Source of the DNA: an uncultured Candidatus Saccharibacteria bacterium
GTDB taxonomy: Bacteria > Patescibacteriota > Saccharimonadia > Saccharimonadales > AWTP1-31
Assembly: GCA_937903325.1 (NCBI GenBank)
Contig: CALCZR010000058.1
Span: 65,034 to 129,033 of the forward strand
Direction of reading: 5' to 3'
DNA length: 64,000 bases
Every line of letters starts with the position of its first letter. Within the stretch, counting starts at the first letter, position 1. Of the stretch, positions 13,604 through 47,866 are shown in pieces. Both the position numbers and the translations under genes were made by a program. The notes beneath the pieces were generated by a model. The model ran no database searches. It saw only the letters and a program-made list of their open reading frames with translations, and was not told the origin of the DNA.

Positions 13604-13611
13604 TATAGCAT
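13604..13611. repeat. target-site duplication TATAGCAT (left copy) of transposon 1
   Basis: An identical 8-mer abuts the right inverted repeat at 17840..17847. Confidence 0.85.
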
Positions 13612-13659
13612 GGCAATTATATACTTGACGTTACCACTTACCTCTGTTAGAATGGATAT

Positions 13660-14604
13660 ATGGAGTCATTCAATCTCATCCAGTTCTATCAGAAGTTCGG
13701 TACTGAAAAACAATGCCAGAACTTCTTGTATAAGGCTCGCTGGGTGGATGGTGTAACCTGTCCGAAGTGCGGTGAGATTAATGTTAAGACCTATAAACTA
13801 GCTAGCGGTCGTATAAAGTGTGCCAGTTGCCGTAATACTTTTACCGTTCGTACTCGCAGTGTCATTGAAGACAGCCCAGTACCACTCCAGAAGTGGTTCC
13901 TAGCAATCTACTTGTGTGGCAGCTACAAAAAAGGCATCTCCTCAATTCAGCTCAGTAAGTATATTGGCGTCACGCAGAAGACTGCTTGGTTCATGCTTCA
14001 ACGTATCCGCTACGTCTTTGAAAACGACAGCTTTGAGCTACTGAACGGTGAAGTTGAAATGGATGAGGCCTACATCGGGGGCAAAGACAGCAACAAACAC
14101 GCGCACAAGAAACTAAAGGCTGTCACTGGCAAAGGTGCACAAGGTTTTGGTAGCAAGAACAGTAAAGCTCCAGTTGTTGGCATGGTCGAACGTGGTGGCC
14201 AGTTGCACGCTATCGCTACAAAAGATACTGGCAGCAAAACACTCATGACCTTAGCCCGCATACATATAGACATTAACGCCACGATCTACACAGACGAACA
14301 TATGCCCTATCGAACACTGCCTAAGATCGGCTTTAAGCACGAAAGCGTTAATCACGGCGTTAAAGAATTTGTAAACGGCATGGCCAGTACTAACACGACC
14401 GAGTCGTTTTGGTCACATTTAAAACGAGGCATTAATGGTATTTACCACCACGTCAGCACCAAACATCTGCAACGTTATTGCGATGAATACAGCTACCGTT
14501 GGAATACCCGTGAGCTAACTGACGGTGAACGGTTTGAGGACTGGTTTAATCACCTAAACGGCAAGCGACTAACCTACAGCAGCCTCGTTGCTAAAAAGAA
14601 CTAA
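13660..14604 (+). CDS. IS1595-family (ISXO2-like) DDE transposase
   Basis: N-terminal zinc ribbon CPKCG..CASC, then GISSIQLSKYIGVTQKTAWFMLQRIR, DEAYIGG, IYTDE and NTTESFWSHLKR. The promoter has its TTGACG -35 inside the left repeat, then 17 nt, TAGAAT, 6 nt and the ATG. Confidence 0.9.
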   Translation: MESFNLIQFYQKFGTEKQCQNFLYKARWVDGVTCPKCGEINVKTYKLASGRIKCASCRNTFTVRTRSVIEDSPVPLQKWFLAIYLCGSYKKGISSIQLSKYIGVTQKTAWFMLQRIRYVFENDSFELLNGEVEMDEAYIGGKDSNKHAHKKLKAVTGKGAQGFGSKNSKAPVVGMVERGGQLHAIATKDTGSKTLMTLARIHIDINATIYTDEHMPYRTLPKIGFKHESVNHGVKEFVNGMASTNTTESFWSHLKRGINGIYHHVSTKHLQRYCDEYSYRWNTRELTDGERFEDWFNHLNGKRLTYSSLVAKKN

Positions 14605-14818: not shown

Positions 14819-15655
14819 ATGGGTGAAGTTAAGTATCGAAGACCATTGAATAAACAGCAGATTAGAACTCTACATTTACTGTATTGGTACCGCTTTTGTA
14901 CGAGCAAACAACTTGCTAGATCTTTTGACAAAGCCAGTCCCAAAGCCATCCAAAACAAACTGCAGATACTGGAAGCCCAAGAACTTATTAGCAAGCGCTA
15001 CGATAAGTCCTACAAGTTAGCTGGACGATCTGCTGAATACTTCATTACCCCAAAAGGTGCTCGAGCACTGGAAAAAGCCAACCCTGATTCAACTAATGCT
15101 TGGGCAACTAAGAGCCTGTATAAGAATAAAACAGTTTCAGACGACTTTCTCAAACACTGTATCGCTGTAACTGAAACGGCTCAAAGACTCCGAGAAATAT
15201 ACGGTGACAACAAAAAACTACACATACTCCCTAAAAGTTATATGGCGCAATGCGACCATTACCCAAGCTGGACACCCGACCTACATCTTGAGATACATGG
15301 CACAGGTGAAACACCAACCAAACACTACTTTCTAGATGTATGGGATGACACCAAACCATTCTTTGTAAGTGTCAGGAAAACCAGAAACTACGCTAACTTC
15401 AAGGATAGTGGTGACTGGCAAGAAGACGAACCGTACCCAGCAATCTCAGCTATCTGTAAAGATGAACGAACCCAGAAGAAGCTAAACCGACAAATGAAAC
15501 GTATCTCCGACGAACAATGGGATGATGAGTGGGTGTTTACAACCACGACCAGGCAACAGCTCGAGCATGCAACAAGAGCAATTGAGAAGATATGGTATGT
15601 CGTCGGAATGGGTGAGCAGAGGTCGCTAATACGAGTACAAGATACCGAAGATTAG
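14819..15655 (+). CDS. replication-relaxation-family-like protein (winged-helix N-terminus)
   Basis: LNKQQIRTLHLLYWYRFCTSKQLARSF..LQILEAQELISKRY matches the replication-relaxation pattern by eye. A paralogous gene occupies the same position in transposon 2. Confidence 0.65.
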   Translation: MGEVKYRRPLNKQQIRTLHLLYWYRFCTSKQLARSFDKASPKAIQNKLQILEAQELISKRYDKSYKLAGRSAEYFITPKGARALEKANPDSTNAWATKSLYKNKTVSDDFLKHCIAVTETAQRLREIYGDNKKLHILPKSYMAQCDHYPSWTPDLHLEIHGTGETPTKHYFLDVWDDTKPFFVSVRKTRNYANFKDSGDWQEDEPYPAISAICKDERTQKKLNRQMKRISDEQWDDEWVFTTTTRQQLEHATRAIEKIWYVVGMGEQRSLIRVQDTED

Positions 15656-15760: not shown

Positions 15761-17521
15761 ATGCAAAGCATCCTTAGCTCACTCAATAACCTTACTAAAA
15801 CAAACAAACTCGTACTCGCCACCTTCGCCTTCCTGGCGGTGTTAGCGTTTGGAGGTGGAAGGGCCCATGCAGCAAGTCTTACGGTTGGCGGTGGCTGCAC
15901 GCTCCCTATTGCCATTAACTCAGTCAATGCAGGATCAGTACAAGTAGGCTGTGGTTCAAATACTTCTGGTGTCTATGGAACTAATGACACTATTACATTG
16001 CCAGCGGGGACTATTACGCTTTCTGCGGATCTTCCGCACATTGAAGACAAGGCGGTTAGTGTTATTGGAGCTGGCAAAAATACAACCACAATTGATGCTG
16101 ATGGCTACGCTGGGTTCTATATTGATGCATATCCTGGGCCGTCAGGTGTCTATAGTCACGTACTCAGAGACTTTACTATAACGGGCGCAGCTACGGCGGG
16201 TATTATCGCGCTGGACGCAGATACATTCACGCTCGAGAACATGGTGGTTACCGACTCAACAATGGGGGTATTTATCCGTGCCATTCATACGATAGTGACA
16301 AACTCCAATATCATCAATAATACTAATTCGAGTGTTAACGACAACTGGATCGAAGGTACCTTTGGGAGTTCTCTTGCCGGGCTAGGCATAGTCCCCCAGG
16401 GTGCGTCCTCAAGCGACATCCCGTCTGTAGATATTACAGGCAGCGTAATTAGTGGCAACCAGTCTGAGTCCGCAGGACTTTCAGTACATTTCTTTGCAAA
16501 TACACAGTCCGGCAATGTTGACAGTCTGAGTTTTCATATGGACAACACCACAATATCTGACAATATTGCTGAAAAGTGGGCTGGTGCTATTCTGTTCGAA
16601 GAGGGCGGAACAACATCTGTTGTTGGGGTTGACCTAACACTTGACGCTGTTACTATCTCGGGTAACTCGGTGGAGGTTCAGGATGCCGACCCGCTCGTAG
16701 ACCCCTTCCAAAGCAAACCATATGTTTCGGGATTTATCTTTAACGGTACACTTGAAGACACTCGGAACCTTACTAATGTGACATCGGCATACAATACCAT
16801 TATCAATGATATGGATAACCAATTGACCGTTGCCGGGTTCATTGGGAGCCTATCTCCTGATAGTGCAGGTTTAACTTTTACAAATGCCACTATAGTCGGT
16901 AATGAGGTTACGCAGTCACAGCTTGGAGCGTTCTTCCAGGACTTTCTAGCCAGTGGAGTTAACGCCGCCTTCTTTGTACACACAACCGATCCTAACGCTC
17001 CAGATATAAACAACGCTGCAAGCGCACAAAATAGCTTGGTGGCTGGGAATTCGCGAAACGGTGATGTAGGAAGTTGTATACAGGGCGATAAGTCGGCGCT
17101 TGGACTCTCCGGCATGATGGATCTAACACCCACCAGTCTTGGCAACAACATCACCGATGATCCGAACTGTACCGGATACACCGTAGTGTCAAATATCCTC
17201 TCGACGCTTGGTCCATTACAAGATAACGGTGGCCCGGTAGAAACTATCGCCTTGCTTGACGGCTCTCCAGCCATCTCCGCTGGTGGTGCGGTCCTCGGTG
17301 TGACTACCGATGCTCGTGGTATCGCCCGTCCTAGCAGTTGTGTATCTGTTGGTGCCTTCCAATTCGAAGGTGCTGTGTGCGGCACTTCTACAACCAACAA
17401 TGGCACGAATGCTGGTGCTCCTAACACCGGAATAGGCTCAGTTTCCAATACACTGAACGCTCTGGCCAGTCTCGTTGGGTTAGCTACCATTAGCTATACA
17501 CTTCGTAAACGTGAGGTATAG
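15761..17521 (+). CDS. secreted parallel beta-helix surface protein with C-terminal APNTG sorting signal
   Basis: Signal peptide, then a GGGCTLPIAINSVN motif (CSLREA-like). Repetitive Gly/Asn/Thr-rich beta-helix-type sequence follows. The C-terminus is APNTG, a hydrophobic stretch, then RKREV. Confidence 0.8.
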   Translation: MQSILSSLNNLTKTNKLVLATFAFLAVLAFGGGRAHAASLTVGGGCTLPIAINSVNAGSVQVGCGSNTSGVYGTNDTITLPAGTITLSADLPHIEDKAVSVIGAGKNTTTIDADGYAGFYIDAYPGPSGVYSHVLRDFTITGAATAGIIALDADTFTLENMVVTDSTMGVFIRAIHTIVTNSNIINNTNSSVNDNWIEGTFGSSLAGLGIVPQGASSSDIPSVDITGSVISGNQSESAGLSVHFFANTQSGNVDSLSFHMDNTTISDNIAEKWAGAILFEEGGTTSVVGVDLTLDAVTISGNSVEVQDADPLVDPFQSKPYVSGFIFNGTLEDTRNLTNVTSAYNTIINDMDNQLTVAGFIGSLSPDSAGLTFTNATIVGNEVTQSQLGAFFQDFLASGVNAAFFVHTTDPNAPDINNAASAQNSLVAGNSRNGDVGSCIQGDKSALGLSGMMDLTPTSLGNNITDDPNCTGYTVVSNILSTLGPLQDNGGPVETIALLDGSPAISAGGAVLGVTTDARGIARPSSCVSVGAFQFEGAVCGTSTTNNGTNAGAPNTGIGSVSNTLNALASLVGLATISYTLRKREV

Positions 17522-17530: not shown

Positions 17531-17797
17531 TTAGCCAATCATACGATTCCTCGTAGAGTATAATTCAGGTACTATGACAGATAAGAAACCTAGCAGTGAG
17601 CAAATTAAAGCACTAGAAGCACAAATTAAGAGTGACCAAGATAGACCGGTACGTGAGAATGAACGACGTGTAAGGATTGAAGAGAGCGTTGACAGCGCTA
17701 TTGAAAAGATGGCAAAGGCTCCACCTATTACTAACAAAAACCTCGTACAGTGGACTAAGAAACAAAGAAACACAAGCCAAGACTGACACAGAACCAT
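17531..17797 (-). CDS. small hydrophobic membrane protein next to the right repeat of transposon 1
   Basis: 88-aa hydrophobic ORF. The homologous position in transposon 2 (47543..47833) holds only a minus-strand membrane ORF. The two share the motif LL[VL]IG.A....S. Confidence 0.4.
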   Translation of the reverse strand: MVLCQSWLVFLCFLVHCTRFLLVIGGAFAIFSIALSTLSSILTRRSFSRTGLSWSLLICASSALICSLLGFLSVIVPELYSTRNRMIG

Positions 17798-17839
17798 AAC
17801 AATCTCCTGTAATTTGGTAGCGTCAAGTATATAATTGCC

Positions 17840-17847
17840 TATAGCAT
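17840..17847. repeat. target-site duplication TATAGCAT (right copy) of transposon 1
   Basis: Identical to 13604..13611 and lies immediately outside the right inverted repeat. Confidence 0.85.
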
Positions 17848-31676: not shown

Positions 31677-34600
31677 TTAATTTCGCCTTCCAAATATCGA
31701 CTCAAGGGCATTGAAGATGATAGTAAAGACATTTTCAGAGGCGCGGCCCACTACTACCGTCTGATTATCTGAATGTGAAATATTACGCGCTTTATCTGCC
31801 GAGAAGACTTGCAAGTGGTAGATACTCGAAACCTGTACGTCAGACAACACTACGACATGGTCAGTCGTCAGGTTATTGTCTTCGCCAGTACGATTCGTGA
31901 GTGCACCCGTTTGGCCAATACCGTAGCCTACCTGGCTAGTAGATAGCTCATCCGTCTTCCAGGAAACCACTACTTGACCTCGAGCCTCTGAGCCAGTTCC
32001 ACGAACAGACGATTCTATAACTACCTCAGATATCTTTGGTGGGCGAGTATCCAGGGCCGTCTTAAAGGTCCGTACTTCGGAGCTCGCACTAATACCTTCG
32101 GCATTCACCGATATAGCCTGTAAGGCGTAGTCAGTGTCATCGACAAGGCCAGTAAGGACAATGCTGTGCTGCGTGACAAGTGCGGAATCAACAGCGTCCT
32201 TAGGTGGTGTGCTCTGTGGTCCGTAACTTACCCGCGAAGTAGCCGGTACGTTGGTATCCCAGGTAATCTGCTGAGTAGAACTTGGAGCGTCTGCGACGGG
32301 CTGGAATCGCAAGTTTGTAATCTTTGGTCGTGCCTTGGTGGTAAAGGTTTGTACATCCTTGATATACAAGTTGCCGTCAGCGTCCACTAGATCAATCCGG
32401 AAATAGAACTTCGTATCGTCAGATAAACCGTCAAGGTTAACTGAGTACGTAGAAGTTGTAGCTGCCGTATCAATAGTCTTAACAGCACCGAAGGACTCAC
32501 TGGCACCGTAACTCAGTCGAGCCTGACTAGCCCCCGTAACTGAGAAGGAAATAGTTGCACCGGAAACACTAACACCTGTTATCGCCACTTCACCAACATT
32601 CGGAGCGGGAAGCGTCGTAAAGCTCTTCTCCGGGCTGGTGCCCGTATTACCATCACTGTCCGTCCACTTGGTTACATAGTAGTAGGTCGTAGAAGGCTGC
32701 AGGTTAGTCAGATCTACCTGGTGGTCAGGTTGTTGGGCAGAATTACCGATCTCTTGCTGGGCGTATTGCCCCGGCGCTGTGCCAATAGCGACCTTACTGT
32801 CGCTGTCTCTATCTGTTGTCCAGGTGATGGTAGCCTTCTTGGGGCCAATATTCGTTGCCTTTGGTTGGCCAGAAACTGTTAAGTTAGCAGGACTAGTGAA
32901 GCGACCGGTTGGCTTCTTGGTTGCCACGTTGCTCGGAACACCACAGTTATTAGCGTTGTCACAAGCTCGGACGTAGTAATAGTAGGTAATTTGGGACAGG
33001 CCAGCATCGATAAAGCTCAGGTTAGAAGGTGAGGTAGTACCCACCTGCGTGAAGCTAACATTGTCGGTGGAACGATAAATCTTGTACGAGGCTATGCCAC
33101 TCCCTGGCTGCGACGGCGCTACCCAAGAGCTTGCCAATTTCCAACTGGAGGTTGCTCGTGTAGAGACATCTGCTAGATCCATGTCGGTAGGAGCACCAGG
33201 AGCCGTCGTACTGGCAGAGAAGGTGACGGTAGCAACATTGGCCGCACTAAAGTTACCCGGCTGGTCCTTGGCAACTATCCGCATCGTGTTTACACCTTGC
33301 TCAGTAGCGTACGGTCCGGCCGCTAGCTGAGTTACGCCAGCACCCGTCCAGTGACAATTACTCTGGTCATCTTCAATGGGCTCATTCACTGTCCAACAAT
33401 AGTTTATATCTGGGGTCGACCCAGAGAAACTAGAGGGAGCATCCCACGTAAACGAGAAATTATTACTAGTACTGCTAGATGGGGTAACCTGTAGGTTCTG
33501 TGGTGCAGAAGGAGCCTGCACAGAAATGACCACGTAAGGGGCTGATGAAGCCATTCCTTCGACATTACCGGCATTATCTACTACGGCCATAAGCACCCCG
33601 TTAACTCCAGAACCGCCTGTAGTGCCGTCATCGAGTCGAGCAGCGTCGGCTGCCACAGTGGTAAAGCCTTGAGCACTCATAGGCAATACATCACTAGTAT
33701 CCCGTAAATCCCCCGACGTATGGTTTGCACCGTACCAGTTCATATCGTCTTCGTCACATCCTGCAAAGTTTTCGTCTACCTTTGCAACACAGTACTTAGC
33801 ACCAGCGATACCTGAGTGTTCATCAACAGCTTCAAGTAGTCCCGGCACAATGGTCCATGCAGTGGTGAATATCTTGCTGTTCTGGACCGTACCCGGCGTG
33901 TTATAGAAAACCATGCCGTCCGGTTCTTCATCATCAAACCTAAAACTGGTAGTAATCAGCGGATCACTCTGCGCGTTGCCAGCGTTGTCTACTGCAGCGA
34001 TTCTAACGTAGTAGCGCTCACCAGACGTCATGTTGCCCGGCGCCGCCTGAGCAAGATCTAGATACGTGTTACGCGTACTAAAACCACAATCCCCTACGAT
34101 ATAATTATTAAGCGCGTCTGAACCCAATACACCCTGTTCACCTAGACTACCCGGGTCTTCCTGTGTACCTACATACACACAGTAGCCAGCGATACCTGAA
34201 TCAGCATCAGTTGCGGCCGTCCAACTTACATAGGGCTTGAGTCGGACCCAACCATCTGGTGCTACAACCGGACCAGAGCTAGATTTTTTAATAGTCAGAC
34301 CACTTGGTACGCCTGGGGCATTCGTGTCATTAGAGTACTCGATACTAACGGAGTTAACACTAATGTCAGGCGTAGCCTCGTCGGACAGAATAATCTGGTA
34401 CTGCACATACCGCTCATTCAATGCTACACATGCAGTAGCCGTGATAGCATCGCCACTAGCAAGTAGTGGGCAGTCATTAAAGTCCTTAGCACCAGCCATA
34501 GAGTCGCTTGCTGAAGTACGTACCCGTATACCCGATATTCCTGTCCCACTTGTATTGTAGATGACATTACCGAAGTAGGGGTGTTCGTCAAAGTCAACGA

Positions 34601-36257: not shown

Positions 36258-39200
36258 TCCTTGACTCCAAATATTTTCTGCAGGGCGTTATATATAATAC
36301 TGAATACATTGTCTGAACCGCGTCCGATAATCACAGTCTGCGGATCAGAGACCCTGGCGTTAACCGCTTTATCTCGGCTGACGGGCTGCACGCGGTAAAT
36401 ACTCGAAGTAGGAATATCTGACACGATAACGGTGTGCTCAGTGGTTAATCGAGCGTCTTCCCCAGTTTTGTTGTTAAGCGATCCTTCCTGCCCCTGGGCG
36501 TAGTTGACCTGACTCGTAGAAGGTTCATCTGTCTTCCATGAGACCACTATCTGTCCTCGGGCCTGTAAACCACTACCACGAATAGTTGATTCTATCTGCA
36601 CGTCACTAATCTTTGGAGGGCGAGTATCAAGTGCAGTATGAAAATTCTGTACGTCTGAAGCAGCCCCGTTACCAAGTGCATCTGTACCGGCAGCTACCAG
36701 GGTATAGTCCTTGTCATCCTGGAGGTTCTCCATGGTAATAACGTGTTCTGTCGTCTGCTTGGCATCTAGCTGTTCTGTCTGCTTGGCACCCTTGACGCCG
36801 AAAGTGATACGAGAATCTGTTGCTACGTTGGTTGTCCAGCTAACCTGTAAGGTACTCTTTGGTGCGTCAGTAACAGGCTGGAAACGAATATTAGTAATGG
36901 CCGGTCGGGGTGGAGTAGTGAAGCTATACACATTGCTGTCGTATTGCTGTCCGTCGATGTCAAACATAAGGAGACGGTAGTTGTACTTAGTGCCGTCTTT
37001 TAAGTCCGGCAAACGTACAGTGTACTGAGAAGAGCGGGTTGCGGTATTAACCGTTAGTGAGCGGTCATAGTTGTCGTTGGCTCCGTAGAGGACCACTACT
37101 TTAGTGGCATTAGCTGCTGTAAAGGTTAGGTCTCCGTAGGTATTAGTTAGACCAGAAACGCTAACTTCGCCAACACTTGGCGCAGCCAAGGTTGTGAAGC
37201 TCTTCTCGCTACTTACACCAGTGTTGCCATCCGTATCAGTCCATTTAGCAACATAGTAATATGTTGTACCTGGTTGTAGGTTGGTCAGGTCTACTTGGTG
37301 GTCAGGTTGTTGGGTGGAATTACCGATCTCTTGCTGGGCGTATTGTCCGGGCGCTGTACCAATAGCGACCTTGCTGTCGCTATCTCGGTCGGTTGTCCAG
37401 GTAATAGTAGCCTTCTTTGGACCAATATTAGTGGCTTTTGGCTGACCAGAGACCGTTAGATTAGCGGGGCTTGTAAACCGTCCTGTCGGTTTCTTGCTGG
37501 CAGTATTGCTTGGGATACCGCAGTTATTAGCGTTATCGCAAGCCCGGACGTAGTAGTAATACGTAACCTGGGAAAGGCCAGCATCGATAAAGCTCAAGTT
37601 AGAAGGTGAAGTAGTACCTATTTGCGAGAAGTTAACATTATCTGTAGAACGGTAAATCTTGTACGAAGCTACACCGCTGCCGGGTTGCGTTGGGGCAGAC
37701 CAGGAACTAGCCAATTTCCAACTGGAGGTTGCCCGACTGGAAACATCTGCCAGGTCCATATCGGCAGGGGCACCAGGAGCGGAAGTATTAGCAGTGAAGG
37801 TTACACTGGCCGCATTATTAGACGAAAAGTTTCCTGTCTGGTCTTTAGCCATGACGTAGAGAGTGTTTGTTCCTTGTTGCGTAGCATACGCACCAGCCGC
37901 CAGTTGCGTAATACCCGCACCAGTCCAGTGGCAGTTTGATCCGTTGGCCGCAATAGGAGTGTTGATACTGTAGCAGTAGTCCATCTGATTAAGCGGACCT
38001 GTGAACGTTTCAGGCGGAGACCAAGAAAAACTAAAGTTGTTCTGTGCACTGCTAATCGGCGATGCCTGGAGATTTCGCGGTACAGAAGGCGGATTTTGGG
38101 TAATAAATATGTACCCAGCTGAGCCGTCACCCGCTCGTGCATTACCAACATTATCGATAGCAGCAACATAGATAATATTAAAGCCAATACCGTTACCGAA
38201 GGCTCCGCCGTCGCTACCGTCATCCAGTTCACCTGCAGCTTCAGGACCAACGTCTATTCGACTAGCGGAGAAGGGTATAGTGTTTGTAGAGACGTTGGCA
38301 TAGCCCTTGGTTTTGTCCGCACCAAACCAGTTTGGAGCACTCGGATCACAGTAATCATCCGGATCAATACCGCCTTCACCGGTATACTTAGCGATACAAT
38401 ATTTGAGACCTGCTACGCCTGAGGCACTATCATAGAGCGAGCCCAGAGGCGGTCCTATCCAAGAAACGGTGAAATTCTTACTACCAAGAGTACCTGATGG
38501 GAATGAGAATATGGTACGAACTTCTGGGTGCTGAGTGTCAGCTTTTAACGTTAGTGTACTCGAGGCTCCGATATTGCCAAGGTTATCTACCGGAGCTACT
38601 ACGAAGTAGTACGTATCACCATTATTAAGACTAAAATTATTAAACTCCTGTTTGTCTAGAGAGGTACCCGCCCTGGCGTACGCACATGAGGTTTGTATAG
38701 GGCTAGTGGTGCTATTCGAAAGCATTCCGCCCGTTTGAGTCAACGACGGTGACGAGTCTTGCCCAAGATACAAACAGTACCCAGCCAAGCCGGAGCCACC
38801 ATTTTCATCCGTTGAAGCATCCCAGCTGAAGTAAGGCCTGTCCTGGACCCAACCACCGTCTGCTACTGTGAAGCCATTTACGCTGGTCTTCATAGTTAAG
38901 CCGGTAATACTGCTTGGCGCAGTCACATCGGAGTCATACTGCAAGGTAATACTCGTAAACTCGGCGTCCCGAGCATTATTTGTTGTTAGCATAATCTGGT
39001 ACTGCATGTATGCTTTGCCTGTAGTTACACAACTTGAATTCTGAATGTCCTGCTCGTCATACAAGGTATTACAGGTGGCAAAGTCAGCGGCGTCACTCAT
39101 ATCAGATTGATTCGCTGTACGTATCTTAACGCCAGCCTGGCCGTCGCTATAGCCTAAGAAGATCTTCCCAAAATGTGCTCCGCTAGGGAGGGGGATCGCC

Positions 39201-41133: not shown

Positions 41134-41136
41134 TAG

Positions 41137-41144
41137 AATTCTAT
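41137..41144. repeat. target-site duplication AATTCTAT (left copy) of transposon 2
   Basis: An identical 8-mer abuts the right inverted repeat at 47859..47866. Confidence 0.8.
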
Positions 41145-41192
41145 CGCGACTATATACTTGACAAACCTAGCAGATAAAACTACACTGTAGAT

Positions 41193-42068
41193 ATGAGCTT
41201 GCTAGACTTCCAGAACCAATTCAAGACTGAAGAAGCCTGTCACACATTCCTTGAGGAACAACGCTGGAAGAATGGCCGTTTTTGCCCTCATTGTGGCACG
41301 TATGAGACGTATAAGTTTAAAGACGGCAAACTATTCAAGTGTCAGGACTGTAAAAAACAGTTCACTGTTAAGGTTGGTACCATATTTAGCGATAGTCACG
41401 TCCCGCTGACTAAATGGTTCTACGCGATTTATCTTAATACCTCCCTCAAAAAGGGCATTTCCTCAATCCAACTAAGCAAGTATCTCGGTATTACTCAAAA
41501 ATCAGCCTGGTTTATGCTCCAGCGCATTCGTTACGGTGTTGAAGCTGCTGGGCGCAGCGACCTACTAAATAACATTGTTGAAGTGGATGAAACCTATGTT
41601 GGTGGTAAACAAACGGGTGCACGTCGTGGCCCCGCCGATAAGGCTGTGGTCTTCGGTGCAGTTGAGCGTGGCGGTAAAGCCATGATTAAACATGTACCAA
41701 GTTCAGGCGTGCGTGTACTCATACCTGAGATTCATAAGAACATTAGTCCTGAAGCTACTATATATTCTGATCAATACGGGTCATACAAAAGCCTAAAGCG
41801 TCGTGGCTATACACATACTACCGTTAACCACTCAAAGCTGGAGTTTGCTCGCGGGCTAGTTCACACAAACACAATTGAAGGAGCTTGGGCACACTTCAAG
41901 TTAGGCATCGCAGCCATTTACCTAGGCGTTAGCGTTAAGCATTTACAGCTTTACTGTAGTGAGTTTGAATACCGCTATAACACCAAAGAGATGACTGACT
42001 ACGAACGATTCACGAGTTGGTTTGGTAACTGCCGAGGCCGTGTTACCTACAAAAAACTAATAGCTTAA
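41193..42068 (+). CDS. IS1595-family (ISXO2-like) DDE transposase
   Basis: Zinc ribbon CPHCG..CQDC, then GISSIQLSKYLGITQKSAWFMLQRIR, DETYVGG, IYSDQ and NTIEGAWAHFK. About half the residues match the transposon 1 transposase by eye. Promoter layout: TTGACA, 17 nt, TACACT, 6 nt, ATG. Confidence 0.9.
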   Translation: MSLLDFQNQFKTEEACHTFLEEQRWKNGRFCPHCGTYETYKFKDGKLFKCQDCKKQFTVKVGTIFSDSHVPLTKWFYAIYLNTSLKKGISSIQLSKYLGITQKSAWFMLQRIRYGVEAAGRSDLLNNIVEVDETYVGGKQTGARRGPADKAVVFGAVERGGKAMIKHVPSSGVRVLIPEIHKNISPEATIYSDQYGSYKSLKRRGYTHTTVNHSKLEFARGLVHTNTIEGAWAHFKLGIAAIYLGVSVKHLQLYCSEFEYRYNTKEMTDYERFTSWFGNCRGRVTYKKLIA

Positions 42069-42206: not shown

Positions 42207-43070
42207 ATGAAACTAACGCAAATTCCAAAAATAACCTATAAACAAAGAACAATACTAGATCTCATATATACCCATAGATTCCTTACTAGAATACAAATAC
42301 AGACATTCCTAAAACATAAAGATAAAAAGACTATTAACCTGTGGCTTAAAGATCTTAGAGACAAAGAATATATAAATTGGATCTACAATAAAGATCACTT
42401 TGCTGAGAAAACTAAACCAGCTATCTACTACTTAGGCATTAATGGTATACGGCATATGCAGAATATGGATTTCCATCCAGACAAAGAAATTCATAAACGC
42501 TACCGGGAACACGAACGCAGCCAGGGCTTTATTGATCGTAGCCTTCTGCTGGCAGAAGTCTGCTTAGAGCTTGATGACGAACGAAACGGCAGCTACTACA
42601 TGACAACACGGTACTACTACGAGACTGAGGCCGATTACCGTAGTGAGATGCGTTACCATTTCTTGAGCGACAACGAGCTAATCCACCCCGATATATGTAT
42701 TGCTCAGTCAGAGGGTGATACAGATGACAGCATTGGCGATCCCGACACCACCGTAGCAAGCTACTTACTGGAGATCTTTGATGCTACATTGCCGAGGTAC
42801 CGTTTACGCAACAAACTGAAGAAGTACGTACAATATCTAGAGGAAGAATTAGACGAATGGGATGAACAGACGGGCAAAGATCCAAGACCGACTATATTAC
42901 TGGTCTGTGCTAGCCTCACAGACCTCATCTACGCTAAACGTAGAACCAGAGGGCTGTTGGCAGAAATCTGGGAGTATGATGACGAAGAAAGACCGCAAGT
43001 GCGGTTTACGACTGTAGGGAATCTCAAAGACAATGGCGTACTTTCCGAGGAGAGTTGGGAGACGGCGTGA
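42207..43070 (+). CDS. replication-relaxation-family-like protein
   Basis: ITYKQRTILDLIYTHRFLTRIQIQTFL..WLKDLRDKEYI (winged-helix pattern). AGGAGG Shine-Dalgarno site upstream. Same position as 14819..15655 in transposon 1. Confidence 0.7.
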   Translation: MKLTQIPKITYKQRTILDLIYTHRFLTRIQIQTFLKHKDKKTINLWLKDLRDKEYINWIYNKDHFAEKTKPAIYYLGINGIRHMQNMDFHPDKEIHKRYREHERSQGFIDRSLLLAEVCLELDDERNGSYYMTTRYYYETEADYRSEMRYHFLSDNELIHPDICIAQSEGDTDDSIGDPDTTVASYLLEIFDATLPRYRLRNKLKKYVQYLEEELDEWDEQTGKDPRPTILLVCASLTDLIYAKRRTRGLLAEIWEYDDEERPQVRFTTVGNLKDNGVLSEESWETA

Positions 43071-43114: not shown

Positions 43115-44446
43115 CTAGAACCTTTTGATACTCCCGTGGTTATTTCTTCTCAGTACAGTAATACTCAGACGATATCGTAGTAAGGGTAAGGTGACTATTT
43201 TGATGTGGTGGCCAAAGGTATAAGGAATAGTCGAGTCTTCCTCAGTAAGTGGTTTCTTATGACGTCGGTAGTCTATATAGATATATACCGTTAAAGCCAC
43301 TAACAAGCCAATGAAGAGTAGACTTGGAAGAAGAACGCCGCCAGTAACTGCTAATGTTGGCTGTTTTGTATCGGGGCTGGTAGGACCCGTTCCTGGGTTT
43401 GGTGTTGGCGTCGGGCTGGGTTCTGGCTCTGGTTCGGGATCTGGGATGAGGCGAGATACACCAATCTTATTCACGCCTGGAGCGGATTCTACAAACCAAA
43501 TACTGCCGTCGGTGCCTGCGGCAATACTATTGGGATATGATGCTGGCGTTGGAATATCATACTCAGTGACCGTACCAGAGGTAGTGATCATAGCTACCTT
43601 GTTATTAAATAGTTCGGTTACCCAAAGATTGCCGTCTGAACCTACCGTAATGTTTCTGTAATAACCAAATGTTTCACCCGTCAATCCTGGGACTGCAGTG
43701 AAGTTTCCATCAACGGTAATCTTTCCAACTTGATAGATGCCTGTACCTGCTACACTGACCCATAGATTACCATCTGGGCCTTGGGTAATGCCAGATGGAT
43801 ACCCGCTTCCACTCGGCAGGCTGTACAGTGTGACGTTTCCATCAACGGTGATCTTTCCAACTTCCTGCGTTCCAAATTTGGTAAACCACAGATTTCCATC
43901 CGGACCGGTTGTTATGGTACCTAGATCAAACGTACCGGTATTAGCAACGGGATACTCGGTAACCACTCCGGCAGTAGTCATTTTACTTATCTTCCCTTCC
44001 TCTGACTGGGTAAACCACAGATTTCCATCCGGACCGGTTGTTATGCTATTTAAGTATGCATTAAGGTTGCCGACGGGATATTCAGTAACAACTCCTGAAG
44101 TAGTGATCTTACCTATTTTATCTATATTCCTTTCTACAAACCACAAATTACTATCCGGGCCAACGGTTATCTCGTTTAACCCGGAACTTGGGGTTGTGAC
44201 TGGATACTTCGTTATGCTTCCGCTAGGCGTAATCACCCCGATCTCGTTAGAACCTACATCGGTAAACCACATATTATTATCGGGGCCACGAACAATTGAC
44301 CCAAGGCCTACGTTGTCGCCACTGACAGGATATTCTTGAATTTCACGTCCTGCGGCGTAGACGGCAGGGAGCAACAATGATGCTGAAAGAATCATGCAAA
44401 ACGCCAGAAGCGATAAGCTGACAATCCGATGTTTCATTGTAATCAT
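43115..44446 (-). CDS. secreted seven-repeat beta-propeller protein (Vgb/streptogramin-lyase-like repeats) with LAVTG-type anchor
   Basis: Signal peptide, then seven G[PST]D[GSN][NS][LMI]W[FV] repeats and a Pro-rich linker (PEPEPEPSPTPTP). The end is LAVTG, a TM helix and RRHKK. I chose the ATG at 44446; the track's TTG is at 44482. Confidence 0.8.
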   Translation of the reverse strand: MITMKHRIVSLSLLAFCMILSASLLLPAVYAAGREIQEYPVSGDNVGLGSIVRGPDNNMWFTDVGSNEIGVITPSGSITKYPVTTPSSGLNEITVGPDSNLWFVERNIDKIGKITTSGVVTEYPVGNLNAYLNSITTGPDGNLWFTQSEEGKISKMTTAGVVTEYPVANTGTFDLGTITTGPDGNLWFTKFGTQEVGKITVDGNVTLYSLPSGSGYPSGITQGPDGNLWVSVAGTGIYQVGKITVDGNFTAVPGLTGETFGYYRNITVGSDGNLWVTELFNNKVAMITTSGTVTEYDIPTPASYPNSIAAGTDGSIWFVESAPGVNKIGVSRLIPDPEPEPEPSPTPTPNPGTGPTSPDTKQPTLAVTGGVLLPSLLFIGLLVALTVYIYIDYRRHKKPLTEEDSTIPYTFGHHIKIVTLPLLRYRLSITVLRRNNHGSIKRF

Positions 44447-44566: not shown

Positions 44567-47365
44567 ATGCATAAAATAAAACGTAGTTTTACAACCGGCA
44601 GTCTCGTAGCACTTCTATTGATTACTGGGGTACTCTTTGGTTTTCAGAGCTGGCAACCCGTCCAAGCTGCTGCCATTATCGAAGTTAACTCTACTGCCGA
44701 TACAATGACAGCCAGCGACGGCGAATGCACGCTTCGAGAAGCGATCATAAACGCGAATAATGATAGCGACGGCACAGGCGGTGACTGTACCGCCGGTTCT
44801 GGCGCAGACACTATCAACTTCAATCTCTCTGGCACCGCAGACTTCACCAATGCCTCCCAAGATGGCTACACGATTTCACCAGCTTCTCCACTGCCGGCAA
44901 TCACTGAACAAGTTACCATTGATGGTTTTTCACAGGCGGATTCAGCACCGAACTCAACAGCCAGCCCGCAACCTTTTGATGCAGTCCTGCTTATAGAGAT
45001 TGATGGCTCTAACACCACCATTAACACTGGCTCCTGTCTCAAGGTTGAAAATGCAGACGGCACCATTATCAAAGGTCTGACTATCAACAACTGCGCCAAC
45101 CATGGTATCGAAGTGGAAAATTCCAACAACGTAACCATTCAAGGTAATTACATTGGCACAAATCCTCAAGGAACTTCTGGAGAAGGCGCAGGACGAAACT
45201 ATAGCAGTGGCCCCATCGCCAATGGCATCCTAGCAGTTGCATCTAACCACCTGAAAATTGGTGGTACTGCTGCAGCCGAGCGCAATATTATCGCCGCTAG
45301 CCAAACCAACGATGTGTGGTGGCACAACGAAGCTGATGACGCTAATCCTTCAAGTGATAATGTTCTCCAGGGTAATTATATTGGCCTAGCAGCAAATGGC
45401 ACCACACCGCTGCCAGCTGGCTATGTATCAGGTGTCGGCAATGCGGTACTAATTGGTAACTCGCAAAATGACCTTATAGGTGGAACAACTTCTGGTGCAC
45501 GTAATGTCATAGCCAGTTCCGCTGAATACGGCGTTGGCACCAGAGATGCCGTAACGGGACTCGTTATCCAGAGTAATTATATTGGCACCGATTATACCGG
45601 ATCGGCAGCCGTAACACATACGTATGGCACCGGTCATCCATATGCAGGCATTCACATCGGAGTGGTTAGTAATGCGGGCTTTACGAACCCGCCACACAAC
45701 ATTGATATTGGAGGTACGACTGCAAGTGCTCGCAATATTATCTCTGGCAATACGCGAACCGGTGGCTTTACGCCAGGAGTATTGATGAATGATGATGCAT
45801 ATGACGTGCGGGTTCGCGGTAATTATATTGGCACCGATGCGGCTGGTACCGCTGCCGTACCTAATCAAATTGGCGTTAGTTTCGACACCTTCAATGGGCA
45901 TCCAACCTACGATAACATTATTGGTGGCACGGTCGCAGGTGCCGGCAACGTTATCTCGGGAAACATCTATAACGGTGTCGTGTTTAGTGGTGAGGATACC
46001 TACGACAATCTCTTGCAGGGAAACCGGATAGGAACTGCGGAAGATGGGACGAGTGATCTAGGTAATGACGAGGAGGGCGTGCGCGTTCAAAACGCTGCAG
46101 CGCACAATATCATTGGCGGCACCGCTTCTGGAGCCGGGAATATCATTGCCTTCAATGGTAGTAACGGGGTTAACGTGGTTGACGATGGTTCTTCGGCTTC
46201 AATTATTTCTAACTCTTTGTTCTCTAATACTGGACTGGGTATCAAGCTCGGTTTTGGTACGGGCGTTACGGCGAATGATTCGGGTGACGTTGACAGTGGA
46301 CCAAATAATTTACTTAACTACCCGGACCCAATTCTTTATTGGTCATATGGGGGAGATACCTACATCTCTTATGACCTTGATGTACCGGCCGGTAACTACA
46401 GAGTAGAGTTTTATAGCAATCCATCTGCTGATAGCAGTGGCCATGGCGAGGGGAAAACCTTGATTGGTAGCCAAAATATTACAAGTGGGGGCCTGGGCGC
46501 ACAAGGCTACATAACCAATTTCGTTGCGACCGGTCTCACCAACATAGTTGCCACTGTTACGCAAGTAACGACTGGGTTTAGTGGGTTTGGCTCAACCAGC
46601 GAATTTAGCACTGTTGCCCAAGCGGCTCCACCAGTGAATGATATTGCACTCAGTAAAACCTTAACGAATCCAGAAGACGTTAGTCCTGGTGCGGAACTAC
46701 ACTATGCGATAGAAGTGGCGAATACCGCAGAATCAACCAACGCAATCGATCTATCACAAAGTAATAACAGCGCCCCTGGCGTCAACTCCTTGTTCATCGA
46801 CTTATTACCACCGCAACTTACTTTTATCAGCGTAACAACGCCTGACATTAGTTGCATCACCCTACCAGCCACCGCCTTTGGCCCTAACAGTATGAGTAGT
46901 GGTGACCATGCCTCGTATAACCTGATACTCTGCGGATTCACCGGTGCTTCACCCACCATGCTAAACCCTAACGAGAGTATCACTATTGACCTCGTGGCGA
47001 CCGTTAACCCAGGCGTAGATACAGCCTTCACCAACTACGTCGTTGGGGGTATCGTTAGTAGCGATCCAGATCTAGCAGGCATTGGCGGGGTTTTTGGCAG
47101 TGGGACAGATATTATCGATGGGCTGACGGCAACACCGTATAACAACTTTGCTTCAGCTGCCTACATGCCCACACCTCCTGAAGAACCCGGAAACAATTCC
47201 GGCGGTGGCAACAACAACGGGCAGTCTAATGCCGGAACATCGTCGCCTCTTGGTACCACTGGCCAAGCAACATTAGTTGTCCTGCCACTCGTTCTCCTTT
47301 GGTCGTCACTTGCAATGCTTCGACATATCAAACGAAGAACCGCTTCCTACCGGCACCGTTTGTAA
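44567..47365 (+). CDS. large secreted parallel beta-helix protein (CSLREA-type N-terminus) with C-terminal sorting signal
   Basis: Signal peptide and a GECTLREAIINANND motif. Many N.I(G/S)GT..G.GN.I(S/A) beta-helix turns follow. The C-terminus is LGTTG, a hydrophobic helix, then RHIKRR. Confidence 0.85.
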   Translation: MHKIKRSFTTGSLVALLLITGVLFGFQSWQPVQAAAIIEVNSTADTMTASDGECTLREAIINANNDSDGTGGDCTAGSGADTINFNLSGTADFTNASQDGYTISPASPLPAITEQVTIDGFSQADSAPNSTASPQPFDAVLLIEIDGSNTTINTGSCLKVENADGTIIKGLTINNCANHGIEVENSNNVTIQGNYIGTNPQGTSGEGAGRNYSSGPIANGILAVASNHLKIGGTAAAERNIIAASQTNDVWWHNEADDANPSSDNVLQGNYIGLAANGTTPLPAGYVSGVGNAVLIGNSQNDLIGGTTSGARNVIASSAEYGVGTRDAVTGLVIQSNYIGTDYTGSAAVTHTYGTGHPYAGIHIGVVSNAGFTNPPHNIDIGGTTASARNIISGNTRTGGFTPGVLMNDDAYDVRVRGNYIGTDAAGTAAVPNQIGVSFDTFNGHPTYDNIIGGTVAGAGNVISGNIYNGVVFSGEDTYDNLLQGNRIGTAEDGTSDLGNDEEGVRVQNAAAHNIIGGTASGAGNIIAFNGSNGVNVVDDGSSASIISNSLFSNTGLGIKLGFGTGVTANDSGDVDSGPNNLLNYPDPILYWSYGGDTYISYDLDVPAGNYRVEFYSNPSADSSGHGEGKTLIGSQNITSGGLGAQGYITNFVATGLTNIVATVTQVTTGFSGFGSTSEFSTVAQAAPPVNDIALSKTLTNPEDVSPGAELHYAIEVANTAESTNAIDLSQSNNSAPGVNSLFIDLLPPQLTFISVTTPDISCITLPATAFGPNSMSSGDHASYNLILCGFTGASPTMLNPNESITIDLVATVNPGVDTAFTNYVVGGIVSSDPDLAGIGGVFGSGTDIIDGLTATPYNNFASAAYMPTPPEEPGNNSGGGNNNGQSNAGTSSPLGTTGQATLVVLPLVLLWSSLAMLRHIKRRTASYRHRL

Positions 47366-47833: not shown

Positions 47834-47858
47834 TGGGTGTGTAAACTATATAGGTGCG

Positions 47859-47866
47859 AATTCTAT
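47859..47866. repeat. target-site duplication AATTCTAT (right copy) of transposon 2
   Basis: Identical to 41137..41144. Confidence 0.8.

What the first reader, a model, noticed from the sequence alone, without database searches (positions are those of the whole stretch)
15761..17521. All three large cargo proteins are secreted and end in an xxTG, hydrophobic, basic sorting signal
Seen directly at the three C-termini:
- The 586-aa protein ends ...GAPNTG-IGSVSNTLNALASLVGLATISYTL-RKREV.
- The 932-aa protein (44567..47365) ends ...PLGTTG-QATLVVLPLVLLWSSLAML-RHIKRR...
- The 455-aa propeller (43115..44446) has ...LAVTG-GVLLPSLLFIGLLVALTVYIYI-DYRRHKK, followed by an unusually long tail.

The two beta-helix proteins also share a C-[ST]-L-x-x-A-I-x-x-[AV]-N motif just after the signal peptide.

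Transposons that move cell-wall-anchored adhesin-like proteins would remodel the cell surface horizontally. That matters for an epibiotic or host-attached lifestyle. No sortase gene lies in this window.
Basis: partly seen in the sequence, partly recalled or inferred. Interest (0 to 1): 0.65.

Follow-up and report, generated by a model that had tools for sequence, protein, structure and literature searches.

The report
Sortase-type surface proteins on transposons
Three secreted surface proteins of a Saccharibacteria (TM7) bacterium carry variant sortase-type cell-wall anchoring signals and ride as passenger genes inside two insertion-sequence transposons; a sortase gene lies about 6 kb past the end of the window.

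Summary
All three proteins have an N-terminal signal peptide and a C-terminal xxTG motif, a hydrophobic helix and a basic tail: APNTG, LGTTG and LAVTG.

The motifs are conserved, not chance. In the 586-aa family, all 58 homologues with a C-terminal anchor keep xxxTG (41 APNTG). Distant members have canonical LPETG, LPNTG or LPDTG. T556 and G557 are invariant.

A contig 100% identical to window 56143-64000 carries a 417-aa sortase about 6.3 kb beyond the window, with invariant His/Cys/Arg. In an island with matching coverage, APNTG paralogues are directly followed by small class-F-like sortases.

The "shared N-terminal motif" is the known CSLREA domain in the 932-aa protein. The 586-aa protein has a choice-of-anchor Q domain.

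Both gene sets lie in genuine IS1595-family transposons with terminal inverted repeats and 8-bp target duplications.

The "unusually long tail" of the propeller is not junk. It is a widespread conserved module (171 representative clusters) with no Pfam or NCBIfam model.

Verdict: variant LPXTG-type sorting signals, a known kind, with three new twists: Ala at motif position 1, an extended tail module, and transposon carriage. Cleavage and wall attachment are inferred, not shown.

The parts
13604..13611 (.). Left 8-bp target-site duplication TATAGCAT of transposon A
   Evidence: The same octamer lies at 17840-17847, directly outside the inverted repeats.
13612..13636 (+). Left terminal inverted repeat of transposon A (25 nt)
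   Evidence: 24/25 complementary to 17815-17839. Its first 19 nt occur in at least 119 metagenome stretches next to IS1595 transposases.
13660..14604 (+). IS1595-family transposase A (314 aa)
   Evidence: PF12762 at 151.5 bits, PF12760 at 42.2 bits, NF033547 at 193 bits.
14819..15655 (+). Replication-relaxation family protein A (278 aa)
   Evidence: PF13814 at 52.5 bits, cut-off 25.3.
15761..17521 (+). 586-aa secreted beta-helix protein with choice-of-anchor Q domain and APNTG sorting signal
   Evidence: NF041518 at 62.1 bits, aa 482-535. AF2 pLDDT 82.3, beta-helix at 76-498. Best PDB fold match is Rhombotarget A.
15761..15871 (+). Signal peptide of the 586-aa protein (aa 1-37, ...GGGRAHA|A)
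   Evidence: Sequence inspection. Conserved in homologues. AF2 helix at 13-30.
17417..17518 (+). C-terminal sorting signal of the 586-aa protein: APNTG (17417-17431), hydrophobic segment (17432-17503), RKREV (17504-17518)
   Evidence: Coordinates. T556 and G557 invariant in 35 homologues. Motif counts. TIGR01167 at 13.7 bits, below the 15.9 cut-off.
17815..17839 (-). Right terminal inverted repeat of transposon A
17840..17847 (.). Right 8-bp target-site duplication TATAGCAT of transposon A
41136..41143 (.). Left target-site duplication GAATTCTA(T) of transposon B
   Evidence: Repeated directly at 47858-47865(6). The boundary is ambiguous by 1 nt.
41145..41167 (+). Left imperfect terminal inverted repeat of transposon B (CGCGACTATATACTTGACAAACC)
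   Evidence: About 17/22 match to the reverse complement of about 47835-47857. Shares CTATATAnTTnAC with transposon A's repeat.
41193..42068 (+). IS1595-family transposase B (291 aa; 46% identical to A)
   Evidence: PF12762 at 123.5 bits, NF033547 at 181 bits. Identity.
42207..43070 (+). Replication-relaxation family protein B (287 aa; 21% identical to A)
   Evidence: PF13814 at 56.1 bits. Identity.
43115..44437 (-). Secreted Vgb-lyase-family beta-propeller (440 aa from MKHRIV) with LAVTG, TM and a conserved long tail
   Evidence: PF24684 at 268.7 bits. Signal peptide at 44354-44437.
43118..43354 (-). Extended C-terminal module: LAVTG (43340-43354), TM (43274-43339), conserved 52-aa tail DYRRHKKPL...HHIKIVTLPLLRYRLS...KRF (43118-43273)
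   Evidence: 171 representative clusters at E<=1e-3. Alignment A2. AF2 pLDDT 86, helix-turn-helix. No Pfam or NCBIfam family.
44567..47365 (+). 932-aa secreted CSLREA-domain beta-helix protein with LGTTG sorting signal
   Evidence: TIGR04214 at 31.8 bits, aa 40-64. Homologues carry PF13229, PF05048 and PF01345.
44684..44758 (+). CSLREA N-terminal domain (aa 40-64; contains CTLREAIINAN)
   Evidence: TIGR04214 above the cut-off of 25.
47249..47362 (+). C-terminal sorting signal of the 932-aa protein: LGTTG (47249-47263), hydrophobic segment (47264-47320), RHIKRRTASYRHRL (47321-47362)
   Evidence: Coordinates. Anchored homologues mostly carry L[AGS]xTG.
47835..47857 (-). Right imperfect terminal inverted repeat of transposon B
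47858..47865 (.). Right target-site duplication GAATTCTA(T) of transposon B

Best explanation
**What it is.** The three proteins are Sec-exported surface proteins of a Saccharimonadales (Saccharibacteria/TM7) bacterium. Their C-termini are variant LPXTG-type cell-wall sorting signals.

**How it most likely works.**
1. The signal peptide drives export.
2. The C-terminal helix and the basic residues hold the precursor in the membrane.
3. A sortase cleaves after the Thr of [A/L][P/A/G]xTG and links the passenger to peptidoglycan. The passengers are two right-handed beta-helices and one beta-propeller, each on a disordered stalk.

**Which sortase.** The APNTG type is probably served by small class-F-like sortases encoded next to APNTG paralogues elsewhere. 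The L[A/G]xTG types are probably served by the conserved 417-aa sortase about 6.3 kb beyond the window.

**Genomic setting.** The genes are passengers in two different IS1595-family transposons with the same layout: transposase, Replic_Relax, then surface protein(s). This surface repertoire is therefore mobile.

**Shown versus inferred.**
- Shown: sequence anatomy, conservation of the motifs, presence of sortases, transposon boundaries.
- Inferred: export, cleavage, wall attachment, which sortase pairs with which motif, and any adhesin role.
For: **Signal anatomy and conservation**
- The tripartite signals are at the stated coordinates.
- 586-aa family: 58 of 61 homologues have a C-terminal TM plus basic tail. 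All 58 carry xxxTG (41 APNTG, 4 APSTG, 2 LPETG, plus LPNTG and LPDTG among others). T556 and G557 are invariant at 30-88% identity.
- 932-aa family: 33 of 41 anchored homologues carry xxxTG, mostly L[AGS]xTG.
- Unrelated propeller homologues also end in APNTG or VPNTG plus TM plus basic tail (P0284, P0287).
- The choice-of-anchor Q domain sits just upstream of the signal.
- The AF2 model shows signal-peptide helix, beta-helix, a disordered stretch at 541-565 containing APNTG, then a C-terminal helix at 563-585.

**Sortase in the same genome**
- L005 is 100% identical to window 56143-64000 over 7858 nt and carries a 417-aa PF04203 protein.
- That protein scores 71.2 bits on TIGR01076, above the 39.35 cut-off.
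- H294, C362 and R371 are invariant in 25 orthologues.

**Substrate-sortase gene pairs**
- APNTG genes are followed after about 15 nt by 227-232-aa sortases (L038, L039/L040).
- These match the class F model end to end at E = 1e-32.
- The L039 island occurs in the same samples as the window genome at matching coverage: 5.85 versus 5.61/5.69, and 2.62 versus 2.56. Tetranucleotide r = 0.90.

**Transposons**
- Transposon A has a 25-nt inverted repeat (24/25) plus an 8-bp duplication. Transposon B has an imperfect repeat plus an 8-9-bp duplication.

**Literature**
- Sortases are enriched in CPR bacteria (PMC6744442).
- LAXTG is the class E motif and LPXTG the class F motif (PMC8225981).
Against: - None of the three motifs is canonical LPXTG.
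- The generic anchor HMMs stay below their cut-offs: TIGR01167 at 13.7 versus 15.9, PF00746 at 13.8 versus 20. There is no hit at all for the 932-aa protein.
- The 417-aa sortase reaches no class-specific cut-off, so its motif preference cannot be read from family membership.
- The class-F-like sortases also fall below their curated cut-off (112-114 versus 166).
- Their assignment to the window's genome rests on coverage and composition, not on a joined assembly.
- Neither transposon carries its own sortase.
- The propeller's 52-aa conserved tail suggests its TM-plus-tail part has a function of its own, which would fit a protein that remains membrane-anchored.
- No experimental data exist.
Confidence: 0.72

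Rival explanations
1. The C-termini are plain type-I transmembrane anchors. The proteins stay in the cytoplasmic membrane, and the xxTG is a conserved stalk or hinge element, not a cleavage site.
For: - The generic LPXTG HMMs are sub-threshold.
- The motifs are non-canonical.
- For the propeller, the conserved 52-aa tail implies a function for the TM-plus-tail part. It is predicted with high confidence as a helix hairpin, and it also occurs in proteins without any xxTG.
Against: - The invariant TG lies inside an otherwise disordered, variable linker.
- Distant homologues carry canonical LPETG, LPNTG or LPDTG.
- Sortase genes lie directly downstream of APNTG paralogues.
- A sortase is present in the same genome.
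Confidence: 0.18
2. The signals are read by a different C-terminal sorting system (rhombosortase/GlyGly-CTERM, exosortase/PEP-CTERM or archaeosortase type), because this passenger family uses several anchor types in other phyla.
For: - The best PDB fold match is Rhombotarget A, a rhombosortase substrate.
- There is a weak TIGR04212 hit on the 932-aa N-terminus.
- "Choice-of-anchor" domains are defined by pairing with various anchor types (the family definition is from my own knowledge).
Against: - There is no PEP, GlyGly or PGF motif at these C-termini.
- The only weak C-terminal hits are to LPXTG- or LAVTG-type models.
- No such sorting enzyme was seen in the window or in about 30 kb of flanks.
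- Sortases are present and genetically linked to the APNTG family.
Confidence: 0.03
3. The proteins are subunits of sortase-assembled pili, because the 417-aa sortase scores best against class C (pilus-polymerising) sortases.
For: The best class-level score is class C at 75 bits. The best PDB relative is Actinomyces oris SrtC1, 2xwg.
Against: - The class C cut-off of 160 is far from met.
- The passengers are large beta-helices and a propeller, not Ig-like pilin folds.
- By inspection of the three sequences I saw no pilin-like motif. This was not searched systematically.
- The sortase locus holds no pilin-like substrate genes.
Confidence: 0.03

Closest known systems
LPXTG-type cell-wall sorting signals processed by sortases (TIGR01167 / PF00746)
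   Same: - N-terminal signal peptide.
- A disordered stalk.
- A pentapeptide ending in TG, then a hydrophobic helix, then a basic tail.
- A sortase with a His-Cys-Arg triad in the genome.
- Canonical LPxTG in distant homologues.
   Different: - Position 1 is Ala (APNTG) in most of the 586-aa family.
- Position 2 is Gly or Ala in the other two proteins.
- The generic HMMs are below their cut-offs.
- The host is a CPR/Saccharibacteria epibiont.
Class E sortase / LAXTG system of Actinobacteria (SrtE of Streptomyces and Corynebacterium; PMC8225981)
   Same: LAVTG in the propeller and L[AGS]xTG across the 932-aa family match the LAXTG class of motif.
   Different: The genome's 417-aa sortase scores only 54.5 bits against the class E model (cut-off 160). 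It also has a conserved N-terminal cytoplasmic domain of about 190 aa that is not part of class E.
Class F sortases (Propionibacterium acnes SrtF; Streptomyces paralogues)
   Same: The small sortases encoded directly after APNTG paralogues align over the whole class F profile (5-154 of 155, E = 1e-32).
   Different: The score of 112-114 bits is below the curated cut-off of 166. The characterised class F enzyme uses LPXTG, whereas the linked substrates here carry APNTG.
Sortase-anchored adhesins of Gram-positive conjugative elements (PrgB of pCF10; PMC12857230)
   Same: - They are surface proteins with sortase-type signals encoded on mobile DNA.
- Close homologues of both beta-helix proteins lie next to T4SS or TraG-like genes.
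- Replic_Relax genes accompany them.
   Different: - The carrier here is an IS1595 transposon, not a plasmid or ICE.
- The passengers are beta-helix and propeller folds, not polymer-adhesin domains.
- No role in mating is shown.
CSLREA-domain and choice-of-anchor proteins, including Rhombotarget A (TIGR04214, NF041518, PDB 9cdv)
   Same: - The 932-aa protein passes the CSLREA model.
- The 586-aa protein passes choice-of-anchor Q.
- The 586-aa protein's best PDB fold match is Rhombotarget A.
   Different: Rhombotarget A ends in a GlyGly-CTERM signal for rhombosortase. These proteins end in sortase-type signals.
IS1595-family insertion sequences with passenger genes
   Same: DDE_Tnp_IS1595 plus Zn-ribbon transposase, terminal inverted repeats and 8-bp target duplications.
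   Different: The cargo is a Replic_Relax gene plus one or two large sortase-type surface proteins, giving 4.2- and 6.7-kb elements. Complete elements with the same 19-nt repeat elsewhere are 1.8-3.0 kb; the three relatives inspected (L066, L086, L106) show no homologue of the three surface proteins.

Membership tests
Sortase-dependent cell-wall sorting signal (LPXTG type) | N-terminal Sec signal peptide | tested here: met
   Basic n-region, hydrophobic core and AxA site in all three proteins. AF2 helix at 13-30 in the 586-aa protein. No SignalP run was possible.
Sortase-dependent cell-wall sorting signal (LPXTG type) | Score above the curated cut-off of the generic anchor models (TIGR01167, PF00746) | tested here: not met
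   - 586 aa: 13.7 versus 15.9, and 13.8 versus 20.
- 932 aa: no hit.
- Propeller: only faint EF0750_LPXTG and Microco_LAVTG hits.
Sortase-dependent cell-wall sorting signal (LPXTG type) | Conserved pentapeptide ending in T-G, directly upstream of a hydrophobic segment and a basic tail | tested here: met
   - xxxTG in 58 of 58 anchored homologues of the 586-aa protein.
- Canonical LPxTG in distant members.
- TG invariant.
- L[AGS]xTG in the 932-aa family.
Sortase-dependent cell-wall sorting signal (LPXTG type) | A sortase encoded in the same genome | tested here: met
   - A 417-aa PF04203 protein lies on a contig 100% identical to window 56143-64000.
- TIGR01076 scores 71.2 against a cut-off of 39.35.
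- H294, C362 and R371 are invariant.
Sortase-dependent cell-wall sorting signal (LPXTG type) | Cleavage between T and G and amide linkage to peptidoglycan | not testable with these tools
   Needs biochemistry or proteomics.
Class E sortase / LAXTG system | Sortase passes the class E model (NF033747) | tested here: not met
   54.5 bits against a cut-off of 160.
Class F sortase | Sortase passes the class F model (NF033748) | tested here: not met
   The small sortases next to APNTG paralogues score 112.7 and 114.1 bits against a cut-off of 166, although aligned end to end.
CSLREA domain (TIGR04214) | HMM score above 25 bits near the N-terminus | tested here: met
   - 932-aa protein: 31.8 to 34.5 bits at aa 40-64.
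- 586-aa protein: no hit even at E<=10. It shares only the short motif.
Choice-of-anchor Q domain (NF041518) | HMM score above 25 bits, located upstream of a C-terminal anchor signal | tested here: met
   586-aa protein: 62.1 bits at aa 482-535, 17 residues before APNTG.
IS1595-family transposon | DDE_Tnp_IS1595 transposase with Zn ribbon, terminal inverted repeats, 8-bp target duplication | tested here: met
   - Transposase hits.
- A: 25-nt repeats (24/25) and TATAGCAT duplication.
- B: imperfect repeats and GAATTCTA(T) duplication.
Virginiamycin B (streptogramin) lyase | Passes the Vgb(A)/Vgb(B) specific models | tested here: not met
   235 and 188 bits against a cut-off of 600. Only the broad PF24684 propeller family is met, at 268.7 against 50.

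The most novel reading that the evidence does not exclude
**The module.** The propeller's C-terminus is an undescribed, Saccharibacteria-wide membrane-proximal module: LAxTG, a TM helix, then DYR[RK]HKKPL...HHx[KR]VV[TS]xPLxxYR.

**Where it occurs.**
1. After LAxTG on many different surface proteins.
2. Between TM2 and TM3 at the N-terminus of giant fn3/HATPase_c proteins.
3. As stand-alone proteins of about 90 aa.

**Possible role.** It could be a cytoplasmic docking or targeting signal that directs surface proteins to a particular site or partner. One candidate partner is the conserved N-terminal cytoplasmic domain of the Saccharimonadales sortase. That would add a new layer to sortase-type sorting.

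**Wider reading.** Together with the transposon carriage, this would mean that epibiont surface architecture is both modularly addressed and horizontally reshuffled.
Probability: 0.2. Interest if true: 0.72.

Novelty: new variant of a known kind. Interest (0 to 1): 0.5.

Why it matters
**Why the biology matters.** Saccharibacteria live attached to host bacteria, and their surface proteins are prime candidates for host recognition. Type IV pili are the attachment structures discussed in the papers I read.

**What this locus shows.**
- A sortase-anchored repertoire exists in this lineage.
- It uses motif variants that standard LPXTG models miss, so automated annotation under-counts it.
- At least part of it sits in IS1595 transposons with fresh target duplications, so it can move within and between genomes.

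**What it makes testable.**
- It gives concrete peptide substrates (APNTG, LGTTG, LAVTG) and candidate enzymes for biochemical tests.
- It flags an unmodelled conserved tail module that could be turned into a family model.

Tried and rejected
1. **Generic anchor HMMs on the isolated C-termini.** Only sub-threshold hits, so membership by HMM could not be claimed.
2. **CSLREA model on the 586-aa N-terminus.** No hit.
3. **Sortase inside the window.** None found.
4. **Sortase next to its substrates at the 417-aa sortase locus in 24 species.** Only one small LPVTG protein was found, in L017. That locus is therefore not a substrate cluster.
5. **Naming the window's genome.**
   - The genome-contig scan with the sortase found no identical genome; the best hit was 76%.
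   - The cluster look-up gave no accessions for the window proteins.
   - The link between the window and the class-F-like sortase island therefore rests on sample co-occurrence, coverage and composition only.
6. **Empty-site search via the exact SmpB protein.** Every context found carries the transposon end, so no empty site was seen.
7. **Pfam and NCBIfam on 45 tail modules.** Nothing covers the tail.
8. **Pilus reading and rhombosortase/exosortase reading.** Considered and rejected for the reasons given under the rival explanations.
9. **Streptogramin-lyase function for the propeller.** Rejected, because the specific models are far below their cut-offs.
Full report
**1. Observation**

The window comes from a Candidatus Saccharibacteria (Saccharimonadales) genome, judged by the names of homologues and the titles of related loci. 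The three ORFs exist as described.
- The 586-aa protein (15761-17521, +) ends ...GAPNTG-IGSVSNTLNALASLVGLATISYTL-RKREV.
- The 932-aa protein (44567-47365, +) ends ...PLGTTG-QATLVVLPLVLLWSSLAML-RHIKRRTASYRHRL.
- The propeller (43115-44482, -) has ...LAVTG-GVLLPSLLFIGLLVALTVYIYI-DYRRHKK followed by 45 more residues. "455 aa" is the TTG-start ORF; the public call starts at MKHRIV and gives 440 aa.

All three begin with signal-peptide-like sequences ending AHA|A, VQA|A and VYA|A. This is by inspection, because no SignalP was available.

Among the roughly 60 non-overlapping genes of the window, only these three show a motif-TM-basic C-terminus. Fisher p = 3e-5 for the coincidence with being transposon cargo.

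**2. What the proteins are**

- *The 586-aa protein.* It has a choice-of-anchor Q domain (NF041518, 62.1 bits, aa 482-535) just before the signal. AlphaFold2 on 35 homologues gives mean pLDDT 82.3. The model shows an N-terminal helix (13-30), a beta-strand-rich fold over 76-498 whose fold matches below identify it as a parallel beta-helix, a low-confidence linker (541-565) that contains APNTG, and a C-terminal helix (563-585). Its best PDB fold matches are Rhombotarget A, mannuronan epimerases and polysaccharide lyases, all right-handed beta-helices.
- *The 932-aa protein.* It passes the CSLREA N-terminal domain model (TIGR04214, 31.8-34.5 bits). Its homologues carry Beta_helix, NosD and DUF11 domains. 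The 586-aa protein shares the short motif (C46, A51 and N56 invariant in its family) but does not reach the model.
- *The propeller.* It belongs to the broad Vgb_lyase propeller family (PF24684, 268.7 bits). It is far below the streptogramin-lyase-specific cut-offs.

**3. Are the C-termini real sorting signals?**

Conservation says yes.
- Of 61 homologues of the 586-aa protein, 58 have a C-terminal TM plus basic tail, and all 58 have xxxTG in front of it. The counts are 41 APNTG, 4 APSTG, and APATG, APDTG, SPNTG and VPNTG. In the more distant members there are LPETG (2), LPNTG, LPDTG, LANTG, LADTG and LAKTG.
- T556 and G557 are invariant in an alignment at 30-88% identity, inside an otherwise variable linker.
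- Of the 120 best homologues of the 932-aa protein, 41 have such an anchor. Of these, 33 carry xxxTG, nearly all L[A/G/S/P]xTG.
- Unrelated propeller homologues also end in APNTG or VPNTG plus TM plus basic tail (P0284, P0287).

The generic anchor HMMs do not reach their cut-offs on the window proteins. TIGR01167 scores 13.7 against 15.9, PF00746 scores 13.8 against 20, and the 932-aa protein gets no hit. Membership by those models is therefore not met. The signal is a variant.

**4. Sortases**

That condition does not hold.

*The 417-aa sortase near the window.*
- A Logan contig (L005) is 100% identical to window 56143-64000 over 7858 nt.
- It carries a 417-aa PF04203 protein at the position equivalent to about 70295-71548. 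That is about 6.3 kb past the window's right end.
- The protein passes the general sortase model (TIGR01076, 71.2 against 39.35).
- It passes no class model: class C 75, class E 54.5, class D 48.6 and class F 30, against cut-offs of 160-166.
- Its closest solved relative is A. oris SrtC1.
- It has orthologues in 24 Saccharimonadales species.
- H294, C362 (TLITCDP) and R371 are invariant among them, as is a conserved N-terminal cytoplasmic domain.
- No sortase is encoded in the window itself.

*Small sortases next to APNTG paralogues.*
- In related islands, paralogues of the 586-aa protein form arrays. Individual APNTG genes are followed after about 15 nt by sortases of 227-232 aa (L038, L039/L040).
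- These sortases align over the whole class F profile (E = 1e-32, 112-114 bits, below the curated 166).
- The L039 island is found in the same samples as the window's genome, at matching coverage. In ERZ650304 it is 5.85 against 5.61 and 5.69. In ERZ650243 it is 2.62 against 2.56.
- Its flank has a tetranucleotide correlation of 0.90 with the window, as high as loci known to be from the same genome.
- It therefore probably belongs to the same organism. This is an inference, not an assembly fact.

*Literature.* Sortases are known to be enriched in CPR bacteria (PMC6744442). LAXTG is the class E motif and LPXTG the class F motif in characterised systems (PMC8225981).

**5. Mobile context**

Both gene sets are inside genuine IS1595-family transposons.
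- Unit A has 25-nt terminal inverted repeats (13612-13636 and 17815-17839, 24/25) flanked by an 8-bp direct duplication TATAGCAT.
- Unit B has imperfect repeats (about 41145-41167 and 47835-47857) flanked by GAATTCTA(T).
- The two transposases are only 46% identical and the two Replic_Relax proteins only 21%. Two distinct elements therefore share one layout: transposase, Replic_Relax, then surface protein(s).
- The first 19 nt of A's repeat occur in at least 119 metagenome stretches, many of them (roughly half of those held) next to IS1595 transposases 35-85% identical to A's. Complete elements there are 1.8-3.0 kb.
- Transposase plus Replic_Relax pairs recur with other cargo (L066, L083, L086, L106). 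The surface proteins are therefore variable cargo.
- Close homologues of both beta-helix proteins lie beside T4SS or TraG-like genes, resolvases and integrases in other Saccharibacteria. This recalls the sortase-anchored adhesins of Gram-positive conjugative elements (PMC12857230).
- No empty site was found.

**6. The long tail**

A phmmer search with the last 85 residues of the propeller, run against 1.84 billion representatives, found 171 clusters at E<=1e-3 and 68 at E<=1e-10.

*Consensus.* L-A-x-T-G, a TM of about 22 residues, then Y-x-[YFI]-D-Y-R-[RK]-H-K-K-P-L-x3-[DN]-P-x-V-x-Y-[TS]-x2-H-H-x-[KR]-V-V-[TS]-[IL]-P-L-x-[KR]-Y-R-L-S...[HR][KR]F. D34, P41, Y51, H56, V60 and P63 are invariant in 45 sequences.

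*Motif use.* Most long representatives carry LA[K/N/E/V/D]TG. A subgroup has L/I-P-x-V-G and D-W-R-R-H.

*Architectures.*
- After beta-helix homologues of the 586-aa protein (P0016, P0049).
- Between TM2 and TM3 near the N-terminus of giant fn3/HATPase_c proteins, including those just downstream of the APNTG-sortase islands.
- As stand-alone ORFs of about 90-105 aa.

*Structure and annotation.* AF2 predicts it with mean pLDDT 86 as a long helix (TM running into DYRRHKKPL), a turn, and a second amphipathic helix. No Pfam or NCBIfam model covers the tail.

*Reading.* The basic cluster RRHKK directly after the TM can still act as the retention signal of a sortase substrate. The conserved remainder implies an additional, unknown cytoplasmic function. 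It also leaves open that this class stays membrane-bound.

**7. Verdict**

- My confidence that these are sortase substrates is about 0.7 overall. It is higher for the two beta-helix proteins and lower for the propeller.
- This is a known kind of system in a variant form. The variations are Ala at motif position 1, Gly or Ala at position 2, sortases that fit no curated class, an extended tail module on one protein, and carriage by IS1595 transposons.
- Cleavage, wall linkage, sortase-substrate pairing and any adhesin role remain untested.

Noticed in passing
window 43118-43273 (-); also L037 7995-9797, L039 14462-16633, L041 15755-21742, L015/L019 18885-19154, L011 19043-19357: A conserved TM-proximal tail module (DYR[RK]HKKPL...HHx[KR]VV[TS]xPLxxYR) with no Pfam or NCBIfam model. 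It has 171 representative clusters. It occurs at C-termini after LAxTG, at N-termini of giant fn3/HATPase_c proteins between two TM helices, and as proteins of about 90 aa. AF2 predicts a helix hairpin with pLDDT 86.
   Followed up: partly
L005 14153-15406 (equivalent to about 70295-71548, 6.3 kb past the window's right end): The 417-aa sortase has a cytoplasmic N-terminal extension of about 190 aa. Its invariant residues (W77, H78, Y80, Y81, W93, E95, F96, Y97 and others) hold across 25 Saccharimonadales orthologues. It matches no domain model and fits no curated sortase class.
   Followed up: partly
window 13612-13636 / 17815-17839; loci L050-L129: The 19-nt transposon end GGCAATTATATACTTGACG is conserved exactly in at least 119 metagenome stretches, many of them next to IS1595 transposases only 35-85% identical to the window's. 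Transposase plus Replic_Relax pairs recur with different cargo.
   Followed up: partly
window 31677-40465 (-): Two tandem giant paralogous proteins (1526 and 1403 aa; DNA 74-76% identical over parts, e.g. 32587-33359 versus 37164-37936). Each has an N-terminal signal anchor. An ABC/FtsX pair and a response regulator follow. A related locus (L035) annotates the equivalent protein as DUF2341.
   Followed up: no
window 55590-55650, 56132-56191, 56597-56665: Three copies of an intergenic repeat of about 55-60 nt (80-89% identical), upstream of small genes at 55680-56120, 56207-56554 and 56668-57657.
   Followed up: no
window 17531-17797 and 47543-47833 (-): Each transposon carries one more small ORF between the last surface-protein gene and the right inverted repeat. 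In A it is an 88-aa membrane-like ORF on the minus strand, or a 70-aa ORF on the plus strand; gene callers disagree. In B it is a 96-aa membrane protein. Function unknown.
   Followed up: no
L035 1825-4353, L042 2123-9798: Close homologues of the 932-aa protein (81%) and the 586-aa protein (88%) in other Saccharibacteria lie directly beside TraG/VirD4-like, VirB4-like, TrbL-like and CHAP genes of a type IV secretion or conjugation cluster.
   Followed up: partly
L043 1-924: A surface-protein ORF upstream of the P0002 homologue ends ...GAPNTGFRQ-stop, with no TM segment. It may be a truncated or frameshifted sorting signal, or an assembly error at 0.84x coverage.
   Followed up: no
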